From a virus, in the IMG/VR virus record IMGVR_UViG_3300014968_000003, positions 1-49,767 of that record: DNA of 49,767 nt. One strand, given 5' to 3'. The translations under genes and the position numbers were made by a program. The first letter of the stretch is position 1. Each line of letters starts with the position of its first letter. The notes below the pieces were generated by a model, which searched no databases, was not told the DNA's origin, and saw only the letters and a list, made by a program, of their open reading frames with translations. Shown one piece after another: positions 2,047-43,027 of this stretch.

Positions 2047-4046
2047 TGATCCCCACCCCACCATCCGCCAAGCCCGTAGCGTTCTATGATACGGAGTGCT
2101 ATCGCAACTATTGGGTGCTGAAGATTCAAGTTCAGAACGGACCCATCTTCAGCTTCCGATTGCGTTCCGGACAAAGTTTCAGTCAAGCCGATAAAATACG
2201 CATCGCTGATCTATTCGCGATGTTCTGCGTCATCAGTTTCAACGGCATTTATTACGATGTACCGATGCTATGCGCGGCCCTTGCAGGCTTCTCTTGCGAG
2301 CAACTAAAGTGGCTATCAGACGAGATCATCGTCAATAAACGCAAACCCTGGGAGTTGAATCTTCCACTTCAGTGGGAACCTGCCGATCACATCGACATCA
2401 TGAACGTGCTGCCAGGGGAAGGTAGTGCCAAGCAATATGCAGCGCGGATCCACGCAAAGACAATCAAAGATTTACCTTTTGAACCTGACCAATGGCTTTC
2501 TGATGTCGAAATTGCTGAACTCGATGCATATTGCGAACTTGATTTAACCAACCTTGAACTAAAGTACGAAGCTATCGAACCTCAGCGCATCATTCGAGAT
2601 CATGACAGCAAACGATATGGCCTCGATCTTCGCTCCAAGTCTGACGCACAGCTCGCAGAAGCCGTCATCAAACGTCGATGTGAGGAAGCTCTAGGACAAC
2701 GCATATTCAAGCCTGAGATCGATTGGAATATGCAGTTCCGTTACGACCCTCCGAAGTGGATTGGCTTCGATATCCCTCAGCTTCAGGCCGCTTTGCGATC
2801 AATCGAATCGGCGGTATTCGGACTCGGTGCAAACGGTATGGTCGATATGCCGCCACAGCTTAAAGGGCTGGAGATTCCACTGGGGGAGGCAGTCTATCGA
2901 CTCGGCATTGGTGGCCTCCACAGTTCGGAAAAGTGTGTATCCTATCGAGCCGACGATACATGGCTGTTGAACGATATCGACGTTGAAAGCTATTACCCTA
3001 ACCTGATTCTTCTATCAGGCGAGTTCCCCGCAGCCCTCGGGCCCGTCTTCCTTGAAATTCTCGGAAGCATGAAGGATGAGCGTCTCGGCTCAAAGAAGCT
3101 GGAGCGAATTCTATCCGAACGCGGTGATACTTCGAGCTCTGAATTCAAGATTGCTCACGTTGAGAACGAAGGCGGCAAGGTCAAAATCAACGGTACGTTC
3201 GGAAAAACAGGATCTCCCTTCTCGATTCTCTTTGCACCGAAGATGATGATTCAGACCACCATCACAGGGCAGCTATCCTTGCTGATGTTGATCGAATGGC
3301 ATGAGCTTTACGGCATCCAGGTAATATCCGCCAATACTGACGGTTTGGTGATTCACGTCCGGCGCGATCAGGAATATCTAAGTCAGCATTTGATCGAACA
3401 GTGGCAGATACGAACCGGCCTTAAGATGGAGAAAACCAGTTACAGCGCAATGTACATGCGAGATGTGAACAACTACTTCGCCGTCAAGATCAAAGGTGGA
3501 GTGAAGCGCAAAGGTGAGTATAGTAAATCCGGCCTCATTGAAAAGAAGAATCCCGATGTTGAGATTTGCTCCGATGCCGTAGCCGATTTCCTTGAGAAAG
3601 GAACTCCGATTTTATGGACAATAGCGACTTGCCGCGATATTCGAAAGTTCGTCACGGTGCAGAAGGTCGCCGGTGGAGCTGTAAAGATGTGGGGAGAAGG
3701 TCCGCAATTCAAACTGGTGCGAGATATGATCCCGGTGCTTGAGGCGAACGGATGGGAACGTCGAGGGCGAAAGTGGTTTAAAGAATCGGTGGAGTATGAC
3801 GCAACTACCGCTTATGCCGCCTGCTTTCCACCGCAGCATCCTGACTATGTGGGCAAAGTGATCCGATGGTATTATGGCGTCAATTCGCCAGGCCCGATCG
3901 TTTACAAAAACTCAGGGAACATGGTTGGACTCAGTTACGGTGCGCAACCCTGCATGACGCTGCCGGATGAGTTTCCCTCAGACATCGATTACGCTTGGTA
4001 CGTTCGCCGCTGCCAGCAGATATTGGAGGATGTAGGATATGCCTAA
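2046..4046 (+). CDS. Family B DNA polymerase with 3'-5' exonuclease domain
   Basis: Exo I FYDTE; Exo III YCELD; motif A DVESYYPNLIL; motif B KINGTFGKTG; motif C SANTDGLVI. The ATG at 2046 overlaps the upstream TGA. The track start at 2043 is GTG. Confidence 0.8.
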   Translation: MIPTPPSAKPVAFYDTECYRNYWVLKIQVQNGPIFSFRLRSGQSFSQADKIRIADLFAMFCVISFNGIYYDVPMLCAALAGFSCEQLKWLSDEIIVNKRKPWELNLPLQWEPADHIDIMNVLPGEGSAKQYAARIHAKTIKDLPFEPDQWLSDVEIAELDAYCELDLTNLELKYEAIEPQRIIRDHDSKRYGLDLRSKSDAQLAEAVIKRRCEEALGQRIFKPEIDWNMQFRYDPPKWIGFDIPQLQAALRSIESAVFGLGANGMVDMPPQLKGLEIPLGEAVYRLGIGGLHSSEKCVSYRADDTWLLNDIDVESYYPNLILLSGEFPAALGPVFLEILGSMKDERLGSKKLERILSERGDTSSSEFKIAHVENEGGKVKINGTFGKTGSPFSILFAPKMMIQTTITGQLSLLMLIEWHELYGIQVISANTDGLVIHVRRDQEYLSQHLIEQWQIRTGLKMEKTSYSAMYMRDVNNYFAVKIKGGVKRKGEYSKSGLIEKKNPDVEICSDAVADFLEKGTPILWTIATCRDIRKFVTVQKVAGGAVKMWGEGPQFKLVRDMIPVLEANGWERRGRKWFKESVEYDATTAYAACFPPQHPDYVGKVIRWYYGVNSPGPIVYKNSGNMVGLSYGAQPCMTLPDEFPSDIDYAWYVRRCQQILEDVGYA

Positions 4047-4467
4047 GCTATCTCACGGCACTCACATCCATCGCAAAGGCTATCCTCGCTTATCTGCCGG
4101 CGTCTGTCGTGACAAGTACGTCCACATCCTAGTTGCCGAAGGAATGATGGGCAGACCTCTTGAGCCGTGGGAAGAAGTACATCACAAGGATGGAGATCGA
4201 TCAAATCCCAGGTGGACCAATCTGATCGTCATCGACAAGGTGAAACATAGCGAGATCAGCCGCCGACAACAGATTCATCAGGCTGGTGGAATGGAGCAAG
4301 CACTTGCCGCCGCTTTAGCTTACCGGGAAATCATGGGGAGAGGATATGAAGAGATGGAAGTGCCTGAACTGTCAGACGACGGTAATGAGGATGGATTCTC
4401 AGATACCTCGTTCCTGCCGGAAGTGTTACTCGGGCAGGGCATGGATGAAAGAGATTTGGAGCAGTGA
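4039..4467 (+). CDS. HNH endonuclease
   Basis: HHKDGDRSNPRWTNLIVIDKVKH motif. The ATG overlaps the end of the polymerase gene. Confidence 0.85.
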   Translation: MPKLSHGTHIHRKGYPRLSAGVCRDKYVHILVAEGMMGRPLEPWEEVHHKDGDRSNPRWTNLIVIDKVKHSEISRRQQIHQAGGMEQALAAALAYREIMGRGYEEMEVPELSDDGNEDGFSDTSFLPEVLLGQGMDERDLEQ

Positions 4468-4540
4468 GGAGCGTCTTATAGTAACTGAGGTAGGGGGAAG
4501 TAGCTTTGAGGCTGCTCCAAGCTAAGTAAAGCGTTTTATC

Positions 4541-5194
4541 TTAAGGCGTATGGCGAGCTACGGCAGCCGAAATATCCCACAATTCCCCCATTCGCTTTAC
4601 TGGCCACATGTACCAGGGAATAGGCTTCAGATAATCAGCCGTCACCTTGTCTGTAACCTTGCGAGCGTCCGCCGTGATTCCCGCTGCTGATCCTGTTACG
4701 TCTCGAACATTTCCGAGAGTCGCCGCAAGGTCTGGTTGATCCTGAGCCATGTAGGTTCGAAAGTCTGTTACCGCTCCGTTGGCGTTCTCAATTGCCGGAG
4801 GTAAGGTGCGGAGGACTGCCGGAATCGCGTCTGTAGCCGTACGTGCTGAGTCCAGAAGCGGCCCTACAGCCTGCATCTGCCTATTGGCGACCCCTACAGC
4901 CTCCGTAACGCTTCCGAGCGTACCTTGAGCAGCTCTGAGCGTTCCGTCTATTGTTCCGAGAGTCCTATCGAGATGCCACATCTCCGCGCGGAGGTCTCGC
5001 TCGATCGCAGCGACAGATTGAACTTGCTGTTTACTGGCGTTCGCCCATGCACCAGTGGCCGCATCGATATGGCTTACGGTGCTGTTGAGATCCGGAATCT
5101 TAGGAAGAGTGAGAACTCGATATCCGATCGCAGACAAAGCAAAGGCCCCAGCCGCAGCTAGGGCCCATGCGCGTGTCTCGCTTTGCCAGGTCAT
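4541..5194 (-). CDS. N-terminally membrane-anchored protein with a long helical ectodomain, function unknown. It is the last gene of the late operon and an i-spanin/lysis-accessory candidate.
   Basis: TM segment AWALAAAGAFALSAIGY. The ATG at 5194 lies one base after the upstream TAA. The track start at 5245 is TTG. Confidence 0.5.
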   Translation of the reverse strand: MTWQSETRAWALAAAGAFALSAIGYRVLTLPKIPDLNSTVSHIDAATGAWANASKQQVQSVAAIERDLRAEMWHLDRTLGTIDGTLRAAQGTLGSVTEAVGVANRQMQAVGPLLDSARTATDAIPAVLRTLPPAIENANGAVTDFRTYMAQDQPDLAATLGNVRDVTGSAAGITADARKVTDKVTADYLKPIPWYMWPVKRMGELWDISAAVARHTP

Positions 5195-5195
5195 T

Positions 5196-5621
5196 TTAGG
5201 TTGCCGAAGGCGTTGGCTGAGGGAAGTTTGCCAAGAGTGCAGCAAATTCTTTGAGCACTTTGTTTACGAGAGCGACGCTTGCCGGATTGGTAATGTGTCC
5301 TGCCGTAAGTGCGGCAGCCAGATTGTTTTGAATTGAGGCGATCATCGAAGCTGCGGAAGGCGTCGGGCCGGCGTCCGTAATGACAGCGCGCACAACCGTA
5401 ATATCCTGAATTGATTCCGAAATGACGCTTTGCACCTCACCTGAAACCGCACTTCCGGCGATAGGTTGCAAAAGAGTGACCAGAACAGGCCCAGCATAAG
5501 CGAGGGTGGTATCGGCGATTTGCAGGAATGTTGGGGCTTCACCAAGAATCTTGGTTACTTCGTTTTTTGCCCAATTACAGAACGTATGTTCTGCATTCTT
5601 CAATTCAATGAGAAAACTCAT
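5196..5621 (-). CDS. Hypothetical protein
   Basis: ATG preceded by a strong GGAGG Shine-Dalgarno (cctcc at 5627-5631). Confidence 0.6.
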   Translation of the reverse strand: MSFLIELKNAEHTFCNWAKNEVTKILGEAPTFLQIADTTLAYAGPVLVTLLQPIAGSAVSGEVQSVISESIQDITVVRAVITDAGPTPSAASMIASIQNNLAAALTAGHITNPASVALVNKVLKEFAALLANFPQPTPSAT

Positions 5622-5644
5622 TTTAACCTCCGTTGACGATTAAG

Positions 5645-5833
5645 AGAAGTGCGACGATTAAATGGTGCTGGTTCCTTTTGCCCGCTGAGGAAGGACTTGA
5701 ACCTTCAATGGAACACCGTTCCGAGCCCAGCCGCCCGCCATCTGTTAATTCAGACTGACGTCCCATATTAAGACCTGTTCAATCTCTCAGGGTGCGTATG
5801 CCAATTCCGCCACTCGTCAATCGCCGCACTTCT
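5645..5833 (-). ncRNA. Structured tRNA-like RNA element. It is not a canonical tRNA: a D-arm-like hairpin, a class-II-variable-arm-like hairpin and a canonical T arm are enclosed by a 17-bp closing helix.
   Basis: Arms 5645-5661 and 5817-5833 pair 17/17 in the minus sense (two G.U pairs). T arm GAAGG-TTCAAGT-CCTTC is the reverse complement of 5690-5706. GGAAC-GGT-GTTCC is 5710-5722. GCG-GAATTGGCATA-CGC is 5794-5810. No 5-7-5 anticodon arm could be built. Confidence 0.4.
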
Positions 5834-5853
5834 AGTTGACGATTGTATCAAAA

Positions 5854-6144
5854 CTACTGAGCGTGAGGAAAGAAAATCACTTTGATGAGAAAGCCAATCA
5901 CAGCGATTGCAGAGCCGTAGCTCATCACAAGACCTTTATTCAAAAGAGAATCATATTTCTGAAATTTCGCGTCTGTCATTTTCTCCATCCTTTCTTGAGA
6001 ATCTTCCAGTAATGCGAGTCTGGTAGTAACCGAAGGGTTGTCTTTCCCCTTTCCTTGATACATATCCGTTTTCAATTCACGAACGTCTGAGATCAACTCT
6101 GCATATTCATTCACCTCAGGCCCCCAGATATTCGATTTGGCCAT
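5854..6144 (-). CDS. Small C-terminally membrane-anchored coiled-coil protein (holin/lysis or fibre-assembly candidate)
   Basis: C-terminal TM MSYGSAIAVIGFLIKVIFF. ATG at 6144; the track start at 6201 is TTG. Overlaps the fibre gene end by 29 nt. No clear RBS. Confidence 0.4.
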   Translation of the reverse strand: MAKSNIWGPEVNEYAELISDVRELKTDMYQGKGKDNPSVTTRLALLEDSQERMEKMTDAKFQKYDSLLNKGLVMSYGSAIAVIGFLIKVIFFPHAQ

Positions 6145-8770: not shown

Positions 8771-9129
8771 TAGAACGTCACCGTCGAAGACACGTTGTTT
8801 TCATCTACTATGTAGACTGAACCCGTCACTGCGCGATCACTGAAACTCGTGATAATCGTCTGCGCCGTGCTCACTCCAGGCACACTTAAAGCGATAGTGT
8901 TGATCATCTCGATAACCAGAGATGCAGGCGGCAACTTGCCGAGAATTTGAGTCCAGTAAGGAATACCCTGAGTAGTATCGTAATACACTTCTCCCGCGAA
9001 AGTCCGAATCGCACTCGCCACGTCTTGAGCAACAGCAAGCGGAGGAAAGGCGACTGCAATATTGCCGTCGTTATCGACGGTCAAGTCCCATGTATCCGGG
9101 TCGAGTTGAAGTGTGGAGTAGACAGTCAT
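8770..9129 (-). CDS. Baseplate wedge protein, gp25 / gpW / Mu gp46-like
   Basis: 119 aa, coupled between the spike and J genes. DLTVDNDGNIAV...VAQDVASAIRTFAGEVYYD pattern. Confidence 0.6.
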   Translation of the reverse strand: MTVYSTLQLDPDTWDLTVDNDGNIAVAFPPLAVAQDVASAIRTFAGEVYYDTTQGIPYWTQILGKLPPASLVIEMINTIALSVPGVSTAQTIITSFSDRAVTGSVYIVDENNVSSTVTF

Positions 9130-41371: not shown

Positions 41372-42290
41372 AGTTCACCTCTTCCGTCGCTTTGATGAAT
41401 TCCGCTGCAAGTGGCGCGACAATTGCATTGCCATATCCGCGCAACTTCCCCATACGGCCGGAAACCCCATGAGCCAACGGGAATAATCCGGGTTCAATTG
41501 GCCGATACTTTTCGTCTCGGCCATGCCACCAGTCGGCATCACCCCAGAATCCGCGAGTTGCGCCTGACGCGGTAGCTGATCGAGTCTCAGTCTCTCCGAG
41601 CCATCCGTGTTGCCCGCTTCGTTGTAATTCTCCGTCGCTGGCGATCCCGCTTGAGGAGTCGGCACACTCGCTAGAGCTTGGCATATATCTGCTAATTGAC
41701 TGCAAGCATTCACTCGATTCAATCGACGTTCTGAATACTTCTGAGCTTTTTCTGCTGGTATCCGAGAGTTGTTCCAATCCCCTAAATTGGGAGTCGGCAC
41801 GGAAGTACAAGCGTTGCCGGATGTGCGGAGCACCGATGCCCGCAGCGCAAATATCGACCGCCCTGCAGGAGTATGCCGTATCTTCCAGGTCAGCCGAAAC
41901 AGTGTCGAACCACGAGAGTCCAGCCGGGCTTGCAACCTGCTCCCCAAAGATCGTGACAGGTCGTCGCTGTGCGATGAGCCAATGAGCAGCGGGCCAGAGA
42001 TGCCGCTCATCAGCAACCCCGCCGCCTTTGCCTGCCGCGCTGAAAGGTTGGCAGGGGCAGCTAGCAGTCCATACAGGGCGAGAATCGGGCCATCCCGCAA
42101 GTCTGAGAGCAGAAGACCATCCTCCGATGCCGGCGAAGAAATGGCATTGGGTATATCCGATGATGTCTCTTGCTGTAACATCTTCAATGCTCCTGGTATC
42201 GACATCGCCGGGCGCTATAGAGCCGTTGACTATCAACATTCGTAACCAATTTGCCGCAAATTTATCGCATTCATTGTAATAAGCTGCCAT
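41361..42290 (-). CDS. DNA (cytosine-5)-methyltransferase
   Basis: Motif I FFAGIGGWS; motif IV SCPCQPFSAAGK; motif VI IFGEQV; motif X YGNAIVAP. Confidence 0.85.
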   Translation of the reverse strand: MAAYYNECDKFAANWLRMLIVNGSIAPGDVDTRSIEDVTARDIIGYTQCHFFAGIGGWSSALRLAGWPDSRPVWTASCPCQPFSAAGKGGGVADERHLWPAAHWLIAQRRPVTIFGEQVASPAGLSWFDTVSADLEDTAYSCRAVDICAAGIGAPHIRQRLYFRADSQFRGLEQLSDTSRKSSEVFRTSIESSECLQSISRYMPSSSECADSSSGIASDGELQRSGQHGWLGETETRSATASGATRGFWGDADWWHGRDEKYRPIEPGLFPLAHGVSGRMGKLRGYGNAIVAPLAAEFIKATEEVNYDC

Positions 42291-42768
42291 TGTCTTTCCT
42301 TCGTTTCCATGCTCTCAGTAAACCTTCAGAAATTCTTTTTGAATGCTCTTCTGTTCGAGGACTCCTTCGTTTTCCTTTTTTAGCCTCAGAAAGTTTTTCT
42401 CTATGTTCTTTTGATAGAGTCTTTCCGAGATGAGCCGCACGTAGTTTTTCTTTAGTGGATTCTGACAGTTTATAACCGCGTTTACCGTCTCCACCAGTAG
42501 TCATGTTGTATGCGGCATGAACAGATTTGAGAAGTTTCATTTCCTTTTTGCATAAATCTTCCCAACAGTCTGCTGTATCTACAGCGCGAATAGAAAAATT
42601 TTCAATCCCGTACTTACGCATGGCACGATAAAGGCTTCGATCTTTTCCTTTCTTGCAATCATTTTTGTGTTCACTCCATCTTCTCTGTAAGGTTCTGGAA
42701 GTTATCCCCACATAAAGATGCCCGTTGATATGATTTTGAATGATGTAAACAAGCATGGTAAAGATCAT
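42271..42768 (-). CDS. Free-standing GIY-YIG homing endonuclease with NUMOD3-like repeats
   Basis: VYIIQNHINGHLYVGITS...RRWSEH...YRAMRKYG, then SESTKEKLRAAHLGK / SKEHREKLSEAKKGK / TEEHSKRISEGL. The start at ATG 42768 (AGGA upstream) is preferred over 42981. Confidence 0.8.
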   Translation of the reverse strand: MIFTMLVYIIQNHINGHLYVGITSRTLQRRWSEHKNDCKKGKDRSLYRAMRKYGIENFSIRAVDTADCWEDLCKKEMKLLKSVHAAYNMTTGGDGKRGYKLSESTKEKLRAAHLGKTLSKEHREKLSEAKKGKRRSPRTEEHSKRISEGLLRAWKRRKDNGSLLQ

Positions 42769-42796
42769 ACTATAACCAATCCTTTTTTTTTGTTCG

Positions 42797-43027
42797 TTAT
42801 AGTACGCGCTCAATCTCCACCCATCCGTAAACCTGACCAGCGAGTTCATCGGCTTTCTGACGAATAGGTTGGACAATATCCTTCGATTCAAGTCGTCCTT
42901 GAAGCATATCGTAACGACGATCCTTGCCGACTTCGCAGTAATCGTAAAGCGGTTCTTCTGTCCGTCGCGAACGGCGAACATAGAAGGTGAGCGGCCTGTA
43001 ATCGGTAGACTTATAACTGACGATCAT
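42797..43027 (-). CDS. Hypothetical 76-aa protein
   Basis: ATGA coupling to the helicase stop. Confidence 0.4.
   Translation of the reverse strand: MIVSYKSTDYRPLTFYVRRSRRTEEPLYDYCEVGKDRRYDMLQGRLESKDIVQPIRQKADELAGQVYGWVEIERVL

What the first reader, a model, noticed from the sequence alone, without database searches (positions are those of the whole stretch)
5632..5844. Intergenic tRNA-like structured RNA closed by a 17-bp helix that pairs fully only in the late-transcript sense
The 232-bp gap between two late genes is highly organised.
(1) Arms 5645-5661 (AGAAGTGCGACGATTAA) and 5817-5833 (TCAATCGCCGCACTTCT) are inverted repeats with two differences. In the minus-sense RNA both differences become G.U wobbles, giving 17/17 paired. 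In the plus sense they are A.C mismatches. That pattern is expected for a selected RNA helix made with the late operon.
(2) Inside lie three tRNA-like parts. There is a textbook T arm GAAGG-TTCAAGT-CCTTC (reverse complement of 5690-5706). There is a GGAAC-GGT-GTTCC hairpin placed like a class II variable arm (5710-5722). And there is TG-GCG-GAATTGGCATA-CGC (5794-5812), laid out like the 3-bp D arm of bacterial tRNA-Leu.
(3) It is still not a tRNA. About 50 extra nt separate the D-like and variable-like parts, I could not build a 5-7-5 anticodon arm, and the acceptor halves pair only with mismatches or a bulge.
(4) A 10-bp direct repeat GTTGACGATT brackets the whole unit (5632-5641, 5835-5844). 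This looks like a target-site duplication, so a tRNA-derived miniature mobile element is an alternative reading.
Either way this is unexplained structure sitting directly upstream of the GGAGG RBS of the gene at 5621.
Basis: seen in the sequence. Interest (0 to 1): 0.7.

Follow-up and report, generated by a model that had tools for sequence, protein, structure and literature searches.

The report
Mobile tRNA-like RNA cassette in phage
A roughly 190-bp piece of DNA inserted between two late genes of this phage carries a gene for a folded RNA that descends from a leucine tRNA. The same RNA occurs in two other, very different phages, it is no longer a working tRNA, and its job is unknown.

Summary
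Comparison with other sequences changes what they mean.

1. The interval is an insertion. The two closest available relatives keep the same flanking genes. They have only about 30 nt here, with one copy of the 10-mer.
2. The interior (5676-5818, minus strand) is neither a tRNA nor a decaying pseudogene. It belongs to a small RNA family absent from Rfam. Homologues lie in two other phages: L108, a distant relative, and L207, a lambdoid phage with no detectable similarity in its locus.
   - All three share a tRNA-Leu-type D arm and a T arm.
   - All three have a hairpin with an invariant AAUUAA loop and two to three extra hairpins.
   - Only 3 bp of an acceptor stem remain.
   - 6 of 19 aligned pairs changed on both sides and still pair.
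3. No repeat comparable to the exact 17-bp inverted repeat, and no flanking direct repeat, was found at the homologues. L207's flanks pair only imperfectly.

Best reading: a non-autonomous cassette with MITE-like anatomy brought a tRNA-mimic RNA gene into the 5' leader of the 141-aa gene. The RNA is co-transcribed with late mRNA. Its function, its processing and the transposase are unknown. No second copy of the cassette was found.

The parts
5842..5850 (-). Pre-existing promoter-like motif TGATACAAT (TGn + extended -10 type). It is outside the insert and is the likely source of the transcript that carries the RNA.
   Evidence: Conserved at the empty sites of relatives as TGATACCAT (L001) and TGATACTAT (L003). 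The sigma-70 scan, which requires a -35 hexamer, did not flag it. Promoter function is inferred.
5835..5844 (-). 5' copy of the duplicated target 10-mer AATCGTCAAC
   Evidence: Exact direct repeat with 5632-5641. It is present once at the empty site in L001 (ATTGTCAAC) and in L003 (ATCGTCAAC).
5817..5833 (-). Left terminal inverted repeat, which is also the 5' strand of the 17-bp closing helix (AGAAGTGCGGCGATTGA)
   Evidence: Folds as a helix in the minimum-free-energy (MFE) and centroid structures. Its inner ~6 nt overlap the start of the region homologous to L108.
5676..5818 (-). Conserved tRNA-like RNA core (about 143 nt), homologous to L108 7455-7612 and L207 8768-8916
   Evidence: Covariance model R1 scores 166.5 bits on the window and 185 on L108 (both are training sequences). 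It scores 47.1 bits, E 9e-10, on L207, which is independent.
5794..5812 (-). U8-G9 plus the D arm GCG-GAAUUGGCAUA-CGC (tRNA-Leu type, with G18 G19)
   Evidence: Nearly invariant in the three homologues. A weak blastn hit of this stretch falls on annotated tRNA-Leu genes of Enterococcus phages.
5762..5792 (-). Extra domain PA. Outer helix CCC/GGG encloses hairpin GAGAUU-GAACA-GGUCUU. It sits where tRNA position 26/27 would be.
   Evidence: A helix exists at the same place with different sequence in L108 (CC/GG around AAUGAGAAA-GAAA-UUUCUUAUU) and in L207 (GGGGA/UCCCC). I aligned these by eye. PA is not part of the counted pairs.
5740..5755 (-). Hairpin PB: GUCUG-AAUUAA-CAGAU. The 6-nt loop is invariant. 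It sits in the position of an anticodon arm and its loop contains UUAA, as in the CUUAAAA loops read in the expanded tRNA-Leu genes L098 and L102.
   Evidence: The loop is identical in all three RNAs. The stems covary: UCUG/CAGA, CUUG/CAAG and GUCCCUG/CAGGGAC.
5710..5737 (-). Hairpins PC (GGGC...GCUC) and PD (GGAAC-GGU-GUUCC), in the position of a class II variable region
   Evidence: PC has two pairs changed on both sides across the three RNAs. PD is present in the window and L108. In L207 it is replaced by GGC-GAAA-GCU.
5687..5706 (-). T arm GAAGG-UUCAAGU-CCUUC, followed by CUC, which pairs with GAG at 5813-5815. This is the only conserved remnant of an acceptor stem.
   Evidence: T stem is GAAGG/CCUUC, GUAGG/CCUAC and GCCGG/CCGGC in the three RNAs. 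Acceptor pairing is only 5/7, 4/7 and 4/7.
5645..5661 (-). Right terminal inverted repeat, which is also the 3' strand of the closing helix (UUAAUCGUCGCACUUCU)
5632..5641 (-). 3' copy of the duplicated 10-mer, directly followed by the Shine-Dalgarno (SD) sequence GGAGG (5627-5631) and the ATG (5619-5621) of the 141-aa gene

Best explanation
The interval is a roughly 193-bp insertion, or 203 bp counting one copy of the duplicated 10-mer. It landed between a pre-existing promoter-like TGATACAAT motif and the Shine-Dalgarno (SD) sequence of the 141-aa gene.

Cargo. The insert carries a gene, read on the minus (late-transcript) strand, for a ~140-nt structured RNA that descends from a class II tRNA-Leu, probably of the UAA-anticodon type.
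- It keeps the parts that build the tRNA elbow: U8, a 3-bp D stem with a G18G19 loop, and a T arm with a UUCAAGU loop.
- It has lost a pairable acceptor stem; only GAG/CUC remains.
- In place of a 7-nt anticodon loop it has an invariant 6-nt AAUUAA loop.
- It has an added domain after the D arm.
- The same RNA, with compensatory changes, is present in two other phages of quite different kinds. It is therefore a maintained, horizontally spread RNA gene of a family not in Rfam. It is not a tRNA and not a decaying pseudogene.

How the copy arrived (inferred). The 17-bp terminal inverted repeats plus the 10-bp target duplication are the anatomy of a non-autonomous DDE-transposon derivative (a MITE or mobile insertion cassette) moved in trans by a host transposase.

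How it is expressed (inferred). It is transcribed as the first ~210 nt of the mRNA of the 141-aa gene and in read-through late transcripts. The terminal repeats then form a 17-bp helix that looks like an RNase III substrate. Cleavage there would free the tRNA-like RNA and leave the SD-ATG intact.

What it does (speculative). A tRNA mimic with an intact elbow but no chargeable end could act as a ligand or decoy for a host factor that recognises tRNA shape. Candidates are a tRNA-targeting defence nuclease, RNase P, tRNA-modifying enzymes or LeuRS.
For: Insertion:
- The flanking genes are syntenic in L001/L002 and L003-L005. Their gap is ~30 nt, reading TGATAC(C/T)AT(T/C)GTCAAC-(G)GAGG-ATG with one copy of the 10-mer.

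Repeats:
-.
- Flank pairing is -31.6 kcal/mol, against -18.9 +/- 3.5 for shuffles (1/500).

Not a tRNA:
-.
- Acceptor pairing is 5/7, 4/7 and 4/7. By contrast, 12 of 14 other expanded phage tRNA-Leu genes have 7/7.
- Relaxed ARAGORN gives three mutually inconsistent intron-tRNA calls for the three homologues.

Conserved RNA family:
- L108 was found by a pattern joining the D loop and T loop.
- L207 was found by a pattern joining the AAUUAA hairpin and T loop.
- The covariance model built from window + L108 hits L207 at 47 bits, E 9e-10.
- 98% of cells pair. 6 of 19 pairs changed on both sides. 0/500 shuffles reach this. Slid controls give ~40% paired and at most 1 such pair.

Different phages:
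- L108 shares only a ~45%-identical DNA polymerase with the window phage.
- The L207 locus shows no protein similarity to the window or to the L108 loci. It is lambdoid: NinB, a Q-like antiterminator and terminase.

Patchy distribution:
- None was found in 80 DNA-polymerase relatives.

No enzymes for self-movement:
- No transposase, integrase or RT among 30 window ORFs.

MITE definition:
- From PMC11602168: 50-800 bp, TIRs of at least 10-15 bp, TSD 2-10 bp, no transposase.
Against: - No second copy of the cassette or of its terminal repeats was found. The searches covered the window, IMG/VR (15-mer, chance singles only), 185,579 GTDB genomes (paired 12-mers, three chance hits), plasmids and ~1.9 Mb of fetched related loci. 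The multi-copy criterion and the parent IS are therefore missing.
- The repeats stop 1 nt and 3 nt short of the duplicated 10-mer.
- The right repeat shares TTAATCGTC with the target (D4). That could point to recombination at short homology instead of transposition.
- L207's flanks also pair significantly, though imperfectly (2/500). A closing helix may therefore be an RNA feature rather than transposon ends.
- Covariation rests on only three sequences, in an alignment fitted to the model.
- The thermodynamic z-score of the window RNA is unremarkable (-1.66).
- Expression, processing and function are untested.
Confidence: 0.6

Rival explanations
1. Same RNA gene, different way of moving. The cassette was acquired by recombination at short homology: promoter or leader motifs shared between phages, or a circular intermediate crossing over at AATCGTCAAC. 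In this reading the 17-bp inverted repeat is not a transposon end. It is the RNA's own processing stem, which travels with the gene, like the stems that flank rRNAs.
For: - The 10-mer is part of a conserved promoter-leader block in this phage group.
- The right repeat and the target share TTAATCGTC (D4).
- The inner end of the left repeat lies inside the region homologous to L108.
- L207's flanks also form a long imperfect duplex (-41.7 kcal/mol, 2/500 shuffles).
- L207's RNA is likewise preceded by TGATAC.
- No transposase and no second copy were found.
- HNH and GIY-YIG homing endonucleases in the genome could supply DNA breaks.
Against: - Ten base pairs is short for homologous exchange.
- An exact duplication abutting near-perfect terminal inverted repeats is the textbook transposition scar.
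- L108 has no significant flank pairing (173/500), so a closing stem is not a constant feature of the family.
Confidence: 0.25
2. A dead relic. The interior is a degraded tRNA-Leu or tRNA-Ser pseudogene, or the tRNA-derived part of an old attachment site. It was carried in by an insertion and has no function of its own.
For: - The tRNA detectors fail.
- The acceptor stem is mismatched.
- Only one copy exists in this phage group.
- The folding z-score is not significant.
Against: - Three copies in phages with 41-56% GC share the same non-tRNA features: the AAUUAA loop, the PA domain and the 3-bp closing helix.
- They keep their helices through changes on both sides.
- No integrase is present in the window.
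Confidence: 0.08
3. A real tRNA that needs unusual maturation. It would be an intron-containing or expanded tRNA (Leu, Ser or a UAA-reading suppressor) that is spliced or used as it is.
For: - Relaxed ARAGORN with introns calls tRNA-Ser(GGA) with a 66-nt intron in the window and tRNA-Stop(UUA) in L108.
- Phage tRNA-Leu genes with 50-75 extra nt and perfect acceptor stems do exist.
Against: - The three relaxed calls disagree in isotype, anticodon and intron position.
- The acceptor stem is unpaired at the same places in all three homologues.
- The anticodon-like loop has 6 nt.
- There is no CCA. The base in the discriminator position is G, A and A in the three RNAs.
- The Rfam tRNA model gives no hit even at E<=10.
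Confidence: 0.04
4. A Y-RNA-like partner of a host Ro60/Rsr protein. Such RNAs have a long terminal stem plus a tRNA-like domain, as in YrlA and Deinococcus Yrn1.
For: - The architecture resembles Yrn1: the ends pair, D-like and T arms are present, and the 'anticodon' loop has 6 nt (PMC4201824).
- The 5' sequence GACGAGUG is one mismatch from the GNCGAAN0-1G motif.
Against: - No TROVE/Ro60 gene is within 4 kb or among 30 scanned ORFs.
- No Rfam match of any family at E<=10.
- The terminal stem is not conserved among the homologues.
Confidence: 0.03

Closest known systems
Prokaryotic MITEs / mobile insertion cassettes (non-autonomous IS derivatives). MITEs have been reported in a few phage genomes (PMC11602168).
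   Same: 193 bp, intergenic, 17-bp terminal inverted repeats, 10-bp target duplication, no transposase. An empty site is seen in relatives.
   Different: Single copy. No related IS or other copy was found anywhere searched. The repeats do not reach the very ends. The cargo is a conserved structured RNA gene rather than filler or a protein gene.
Bacterial Y RNAs (YrlA, Deinococcus Yrn1), which are tRNA-mimicking ncRNAs (PMC4201824)
   Same: D-like and T arms with the nucleotides that form the tRNA elbow. The ends pair in a long stem (window copy). There is a 6-nt loop in the anticodon-arm position, as described for Yrn1. Some are phage-encoded.
   Different: No Ro60 gene nearby. The GNCGAAN0-1G motif is not matched exactly. 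No Rfam hit. The terminal stem is not conserved in the family.
Phage-encoded tRNA-Leu genes, including the 'expanded' ones found here in IMG/VR (L096-L111, L118)
   Same: Near-identical D arm (GUGGCGGAAUUGGNAnACGC) and T loop. Extra nucleotides lie between the D arm and T arm. UUAA sits in the anticodon-position loop, as in tRNA-Leu(UAA).
   Different: Those genes have 7/7 acceptor stems, A73 and often CCA, and some are scored as tRNA by Rfam. The window family has 4-5/7 acceptor pairs, a 6-nt loop, and no tRNA score.
tRNA-derived SINEs of eukaryotes
   Same: A tRNA-derived small non-autonomous insert flanked by a target duplication, with an A-rich stretch after the tRNA-like part.
   Different: SINEs move through RNA using a LINE reverse transcriptase and have no terminal inverted repeats. 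No RT is seen here.
RNase III processing stems around rRNAs, and 23S rRNA intervening sequences (own knowledge)
   Same: A long helix made from sequences flanking a structured RNA inside a longer transcript. The insert's ends give a 2-nt 3' overhang geometry.
   Different: Cleavage is untested here, and the helix is present in only one (perhaps two) of three family members.

Membership tests
canonical tRNA | Recognised by tRNA detectors (ARAGORN default; Rfam RF00005 at gathering score) | tested here: not met
   ARAGORN finds 0 genes. Rfam gives nothing at gathering thresholds and no tRNA hit at E<=10. The same holds for the homologous RNA cores in L108 and L207.
canonical tRNA | 7-bp acceptor stem with discriminator base and CCA or a CCA-addable end | tested here: not met
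   5/7, 4/7 and 4/7 pairs in the window, L108 and L207. Only GAG/CUC is conserved. No CCA.
canonical tRNA | Anticodon arm with a 5-bp stem and a 7-nt loop containing U33 | tested here: not met
   The hairpin in that position has an invariant 6-nt loop AAUUAA.
canonical tRNA | D arm and T arm carrying U8, A14, G18G19 and U54-U55-C56-A58 | tested here: met
   Read directly from UG-GCG-GAAUUGGCAUA-CGC and GAAGG-UUCAAGU-CCUUC. The T stem covaries.
MITE / mobile insertion cassette | Small (50-800 bp), no transposase gene | tested here: met
   193 bp. The only ORF inside (47 aa, 5623-5766) has no counterpart in the ORF list around the L108 copy. No transposase domain among 30 window ORFs.
MITE / mobile insertion cassette | Terminal inverted repeats of at least 10-15 bp | tested here: met
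   17 bp, 15/17 identical. They end 1 nt and 3 nt from the duplicated 10-mer.
MITE / mobile insertion cassette | Target-site duplication (2-10 bp), with an unduplicated empty site in relatives | tested here: met
   10-bp exact repeat. One copy in L001/L002 and in L003-L005.
MITE / mobile insertion cassette | Several copies, and/or an autonomous IS with the same ends | tested here: not met
   None in the window, IMG/VR, GTDB genomes, plasmids or the fetched loci. The collection scans needed exact 12-15-mers, so diverged copies could have been missed.
YrlA / Y RNA | Encoded within ~4 kb of a Ro60 (TROVE) gene on the same strand | tested here: not met
   Pfam scans of the neighbouring and of all large ORFs show no TROVE domain.
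YrlA / Y RNA | GNCGAAN0-1G motif near the 5' end; match to the published covariance models | tested here: not met
   The 5' sequence is GACGAGUG, with one mismatch. No Rfam match of any family at E<=10.
tmRNA | tRNA-Ala-like acceptor and a tag reading frame | tested here: not met
   ARAGORN tmRNA search is negative even when relaxed.
tRNA-derived SINE (retroposed RNA) | Reverse-transcriptase-mediated insertion; no terminal inverted repeats | tested here: inconclusive
   Target duplication and an A-rich tail are present. Terminal inverted repeats are also present, and no RT domain appears among the scanned ORFs. The mechanism cannot be tested from sequence.

The most novel reading that the evidence does not exclude
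Phages exchange a previously undescribed tRNA-Leu-derived mimic RNA. It has an intact tRNA elbow, no chargeable end, and an invariant AAUUAA loop. It travels as a self-contained mobile cassette whose terminal repeats serve twice: as DNA-level ends for insertion and as the RNA-level stem that releases the RNA from whatever transcript it lands in. The RNA would act on a host factor that recognises tRNA shape, for example as a decoy for a tRNA-cleaving defence nuclease.
Probability: 0.25. Interest if true: 0.8.

Novelty: new variant of a known kind. Interest (0 to 1): 0.6.

Why it matters
Phage tRNA genes are well known, but tRNA-shaped RNAs that cannot be tRNAs are rare. Those that have been studied (tmRNA, Y RNAs) turned out to have distinctive biology. 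Here one such RNA is conserved across a virulent Bcep781-like myophage, a freshwater phage and a lambdoid temperate phage. In one of them it was caught as a fresh insertion with a clean empty site in relatives. That yields three things:

- a candidate new RNA family that standard tRNA and Rfam annotation misses;
- an example of how small RNA genes move between phage genomes;
- a simple experimental handle, since the element sits in the leader of a late gene and can be deleted precisely back to the ancestral sequence.

If the RNA proves to be a decoy or cofactor for a host tRNA-binding protein, it would add to current work on phage tRNAs and tRNA-targeting defences.

Tried and rejected
Searches for known families and other copies:
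- Ordinary tRNA, tmRNA or any known RNA family: ARAGORN and Rfam are negative.
- Similar DNA in GenBank phages, PLSDB plasmids and E. coli genomes: only marginal 24-36-nt hits to tRNA arms, or nothing.
- Other copies of the cassette through its terminal repeats: IMG/VR gave 83 loci with a single chance 15-mer match.
- Close relatives of the phage through the 141-aa protein: none in IMG/VR. The nearest relatives, at 57-66% identity, came from Logan assemblies.
- The RNA near the DNA polymerase of 80 related phages: absent.

Alternative readings of the interior:
- Protein-coding reading: the 47-aa ORF 5623-5766 has no counterpart in the ORF list around the L108 copy, and the substitution pattern preserves helices. 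Rejected.
- Retron, group II intron or integrase-attachment-site readings: no RT or integrase domain was found.
- Intron-containing tRNA: the relaxed ARAGORN calls are mutually inconsistent.

Other checks:
- The GGAAAGAC hairpin motif seen next to related RNAs occurs in the window only at chance level.
- The broader set of expanded tRNA-Leu genes matches model R1 only through the D and T arms, not through the interior.
- Thermodynamic stability alone does not single out the region (z -1.66 minus strand, -1.13 plus strand).
Full report
**Setting.** The window is a ~50-kb phage genome. The plus strand carries a replication module: a Gp2.5-like SSB, a ParB-like protein, a DNA polymerase and an HNH endonuclease. 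The minus strand carries a long late operon: terminase, portal, capsid, sheath-type protein, baseplate J, wedge and tail fibre. Its large terminase is 43-48% identical to those of Proteus, Stenotrophomonas and Bcep781-type Burkholderia phages. The finding lies at the far end of the late operon. It is bounded by a 41-aa membrane-type ORF (5854-5979) and a 141-aa ORF (5196-5621), both on the minus strand.

The two repeat differences are G.U on the minus-sense RNA and A.C on the plus sense. The repeat sequence occurs nowhere else in the window with up to 3 mismatches. The flanks pair far better than shuffled flanks (1/500). ARAGORN and Rfam find no tRNA, tmRNA or any known family, even at E<=10. 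The 'wobble only in the late sense' argument is weak. A transition in a helix gives G.U in one sense or the other with equal chance, so two of two in a named sense has p of about 0.25 (inference).

**It is an insertion.**
- Homologues of the 141-aa protein (57-66% identity) led to Logan contigs from related phages.
- L001/L002 and L003-L005 have the same gene order: baseplate J, wedge, tail fibre, small membrane protein(s), 140-aa gene.
- In both, the space before the 140-aa gene is ~30 nt. L001 reads TTTTGATACCATTGTCAAC-GAGGTAATCCA-ATG. L003 reads TGATGATACTATCGTCAAC-GGAGGAAATA-ATG.
- The window reads TTTTGATACAATCGTCAAC-[193 nt]-AATCGTCAAC-GGAGGTTAAA-ATG.
- The relatives therefore carry an empty site with one copy of the 10-mer.
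- The insertion point lies between a conserved TGATAC(N)AT motif and the SD. That motif has the TGn + TAnnAT form of an extended -10 promoter (own knowledge; function inferred). The element is now the leader of the 141-aa gene's mRNA.

**The interior is a conserved RNA, not a wreck.**
- An IMG/VR scan for a tRNA-Leu D loop followed 85-112 nt later by GGTTCAAGTCC returned 17 loci.
- One of them, L108, is clearly homologous to the window element over ~145 nt.
- A second scan, for TGAATTAACA followed by the T loop, found a third member, L207.
- A covariance model built from window + L108 scores L207 at 47 bits, E about 1e-9.
- The three RNAs share, in order:
  - (G/A)ACGAG-UG;
  - D arm GCG-GAAyUGGyAUA-CGC;
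  - a helix-enclosed extra domain (PA);
  - hairpin PB with an invariant AAUUAA loop and covarying stems (UCUG/CAGA, CUUG/CAAG, GUCCCUG/CAGGGAC);
  - hairpins PC and PD;
  - a T arm with covarying stem (GAAGG, GUAGG, GCCGG);
  - CUC and an A-rich tail.
- On the model-based alignment, 98% of cells pair and 6 of 19 pairs changed on both sides. No shuffle of 500 reaches this. Sliding the partners drops pairing to ~40%.
- Caveats: there are only three sequences, and the alignment is fitted to the model.
- The proposed comparative fold costs -54.8 kcal/mol, against -69.9 for the MFE. The MFE keeps the closing helix, PA inner, PB, PD and T.

**It is tRNA-derived but not a tRNA.**
- The D arm is almost identical to that of tRNA-Leu genes. 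Weak blastn hits land on annotated phage tRNA-Leu and tRNA-Ile genes.
- The nucleotides that build the elbow are intact.
- The acceptor stem pairs at only 5/7, 4/7 and 4/7 positions, with the same mismatched places. There is no CCA.
- The anticodon-position loop has 6 nt. It contains UUAA, as in the CUUAAAA loops read in the expanded tRNA-Leu genes L098 and L102. This suggests descent from that isoacceptor (inference).
- Relaxed ARAGORN with introns gives Ser(GGA)+66-nt intron, Stop(UUA)+92-nt intron and Val(AAC)+20-nt intron for the three homologues. These calls are not consistent with one another.
- By contrast, 12 of the 14 other expanded tRNA-Leu-like genes tabulated from the IMG/VR scan and JGI locus L118 have perfect 7-bp acceptor stems, most followed by A73 and several by CCA. 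Seven stretches in those loci are scored as 126-136-nt tRNAs by Rfam. The window family is a distinct derivative of that kind of gene.

**Distribution.**
- L108 is a distant relative of the window phage (DNA polymerase ~45% identical). There the RNA lies between the SSB and polymerase genes, on their strand.
- L207 is a lambdoid phage with NinB, a Q-like antiterminator and terminase. No protein similarity to the window or to the L108 loci was detected in the fetched 14-kb locus. There the RNA follows the Q-like gene and a terminator.
- GC content of the RNAs runs from 41% to 56%.
- None of 80 IMG/VR relatives of the polymerase has the RNA within 6 kb of the polymerase gene.
- GenBank phages, plasmids and E. 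coli genomes have nothing similar.
- This is a patchy, horizontally spread accessory RNA gene.

**What the repeats mean.**
- No comparable exact inverted repeat or flanking direct repeat turned up at the L108 or L207 copy. They are therefore not a conserved part of the RNA.
- A 193-bp element with 17-bp terminal inverted repeats, a 10-bp target duplication, no coding capacity and an empty site in relatives fits the structural definition of a prokaryotic MITE (PMC11602168).
- Points against that reading:
  - No other copy and no parent IS was found in any collection. The collection scans required exact 12-15-mers.
  - The repeats end 1 and 3 nt inside the duplication.
  - The right repeat shares TTAATCGTC with the target.
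  - L207's flanks also form an imperfect long duplex (2/500), whereas L108's do not (173/500).
- I therefore keep a substantial rival. In it, the cassette moves by recombination at short homology, and the repeat is an RNA processing stem that travels with the gene.
- No transposase, integrase or RT is encoded in the window. HNH and GIY-YIG homing endonucleases are present.

**How it probably works.**
- Shown: the insertion, the conserved structure, the orientation with the late genes, and the position between a conserved promoter-like motif and the SD.
- Inferred: the RNA is made as the 5' part of the 141-aa gene's mRNA and within read-through late transcripts. The 17-bp helix (15 Watson-Crick pairs + 2 G.U) is a plausible RNase III site. 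The insert's ends leave one unpaired nt at the 5' end and three at the 3' end, which is the 2-nt 3' overhang geometry. Cleavage would free a ~150-190-nt tRNA-like RNA and leave the SD, 13 nt downstream, accessible.
- Speculative: with an intact elbow but no acceptor end and no decoding loop, the RNA would bind factors that read tRNA shape. These include RNase P, TruB/TrmA/Dus, the LeuRS C-terminal domain, Ro60-type proteins and tRNA-cleaving defence nucleases. It could act as a decoy or cofactor.
- The closest described analogues are bacterial Y RNAs. Deinococcus Yrn1 also has paired ends, D-like and T arms and a 6-nt 'anticodon' loop (PMC4201824). The Y RNA membership tests fail here: no Ro60 gene, an inexact motif, no Rfam match.

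**Verdict.** The region is a newly inserted, MITE-like cassette carrying a member of a small, undescribed family of phage tRNA-Leu-derived mimic RNAs. Function, processing and the mobilising enzyme remain to be shown.

Noticed in passing
L096-L111 (IMG/VR) and L118/L122/L123 (JGI); e.g. L096 566-691, L098 4435-4570, L102 879-1009, L118 6130-6283: These are phage tRNA-Leu genes with a perfect 7-bp acceptor stem, A73 and often CCA, and normal D and T arms. They carry 50-75 extra nucleotides between the arms. The extra sequence sits near position 26/27 in L098, inside the anticodon loop after CUU in L102, and in the variable region in L118. Default ARAGORN misses all of them. Rfam's tRNA model calls seven at 32-41 bits. 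The inserts are too short to be group I introns.
   Followed up: partly
L115 (~2070-2200), L119 (~4430-4690), L120 (~5540-5950); also L114 and L121: A tRNA-Leu gene is interrupted directly after its D arm by an inverted-repeat-flanked insert that contains a complete second tRNA-Leu(CAA). The outer genes in L119 and L120 have further inserts in the anticodon loop and the T loop. No target duplication is seen at these inserts.
   Followed up: partly
L108 7622-7645; L126 ~2255-2280; L136 ~1043-1068; L096 and L109 just upstream of their expanded tRNA-Leu genes: A recurrent motif, TTGAC(A/T)-stem-GGAAAGAC-stem, lies next to these tRNA-like RNAs in several otherwise different phage contigs. It could be a promoter or a processing signal. 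In the window GGAAAGAC occurs only at chance level.
   Followed up: partly
L108 7750-7850: A second tRNA-like unit lies in the same intergenic region. It has an 11-bp terminal stem GCCGATCAATA/TATTGATCGGC and a T arm GTAGG-TTCAAAT-CCTAC, almost identical to that of the first RNA. Rfam tRNA scores it only 16 bits. L207 likewise has a degenerate second T-arm-like hairpin at 8922-8940.
   Followed up: no
window 5842-5850, with L001 3974-3982 and L003 3976-3984: TGATAC(N)AT is conserved in three diverged phages directly upstream of the 140-aa gene. It is an extended -10-type promoter candidate inside the late operon. The RNA in L207 is also immediately preceded by TGATAC.
   Followed up: partly
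window 4039-4467 (+) and 42271-42981 (-): Free-standing HNH and GIY-YIG/NUMOD3 homing endonuclease genes. The HNH gene lies next to the DNA polymerase gene, 1.2 kb from the insert. These are further signs of mobile DNA traffic in this genome.
   Followed up: no
window 5811-5820 / 5836-5845 and 5635-5643 / 5653-5661: The 5' copy of the duplicated 10-mer can pair (9/10) with the start of the RNA core. GACGATTAA also occurs twice at the right end. This gives alternative pairings that would compete with the 17-bp helix in read-through transcripts.
   Followed up: no
L207 8640-8742 and 9027-9095: In the lambdoid phage the RNA lies between two intrinsic-terminator-like hairpins directly after the Q-like antiterminator gene. 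This is the slot where Stx phages carry tRNA genes (own knowledge). The two terminator regions give weak isrJ-like Rfam hits (22 and 20 bits, below threshold).
   Followed up: no
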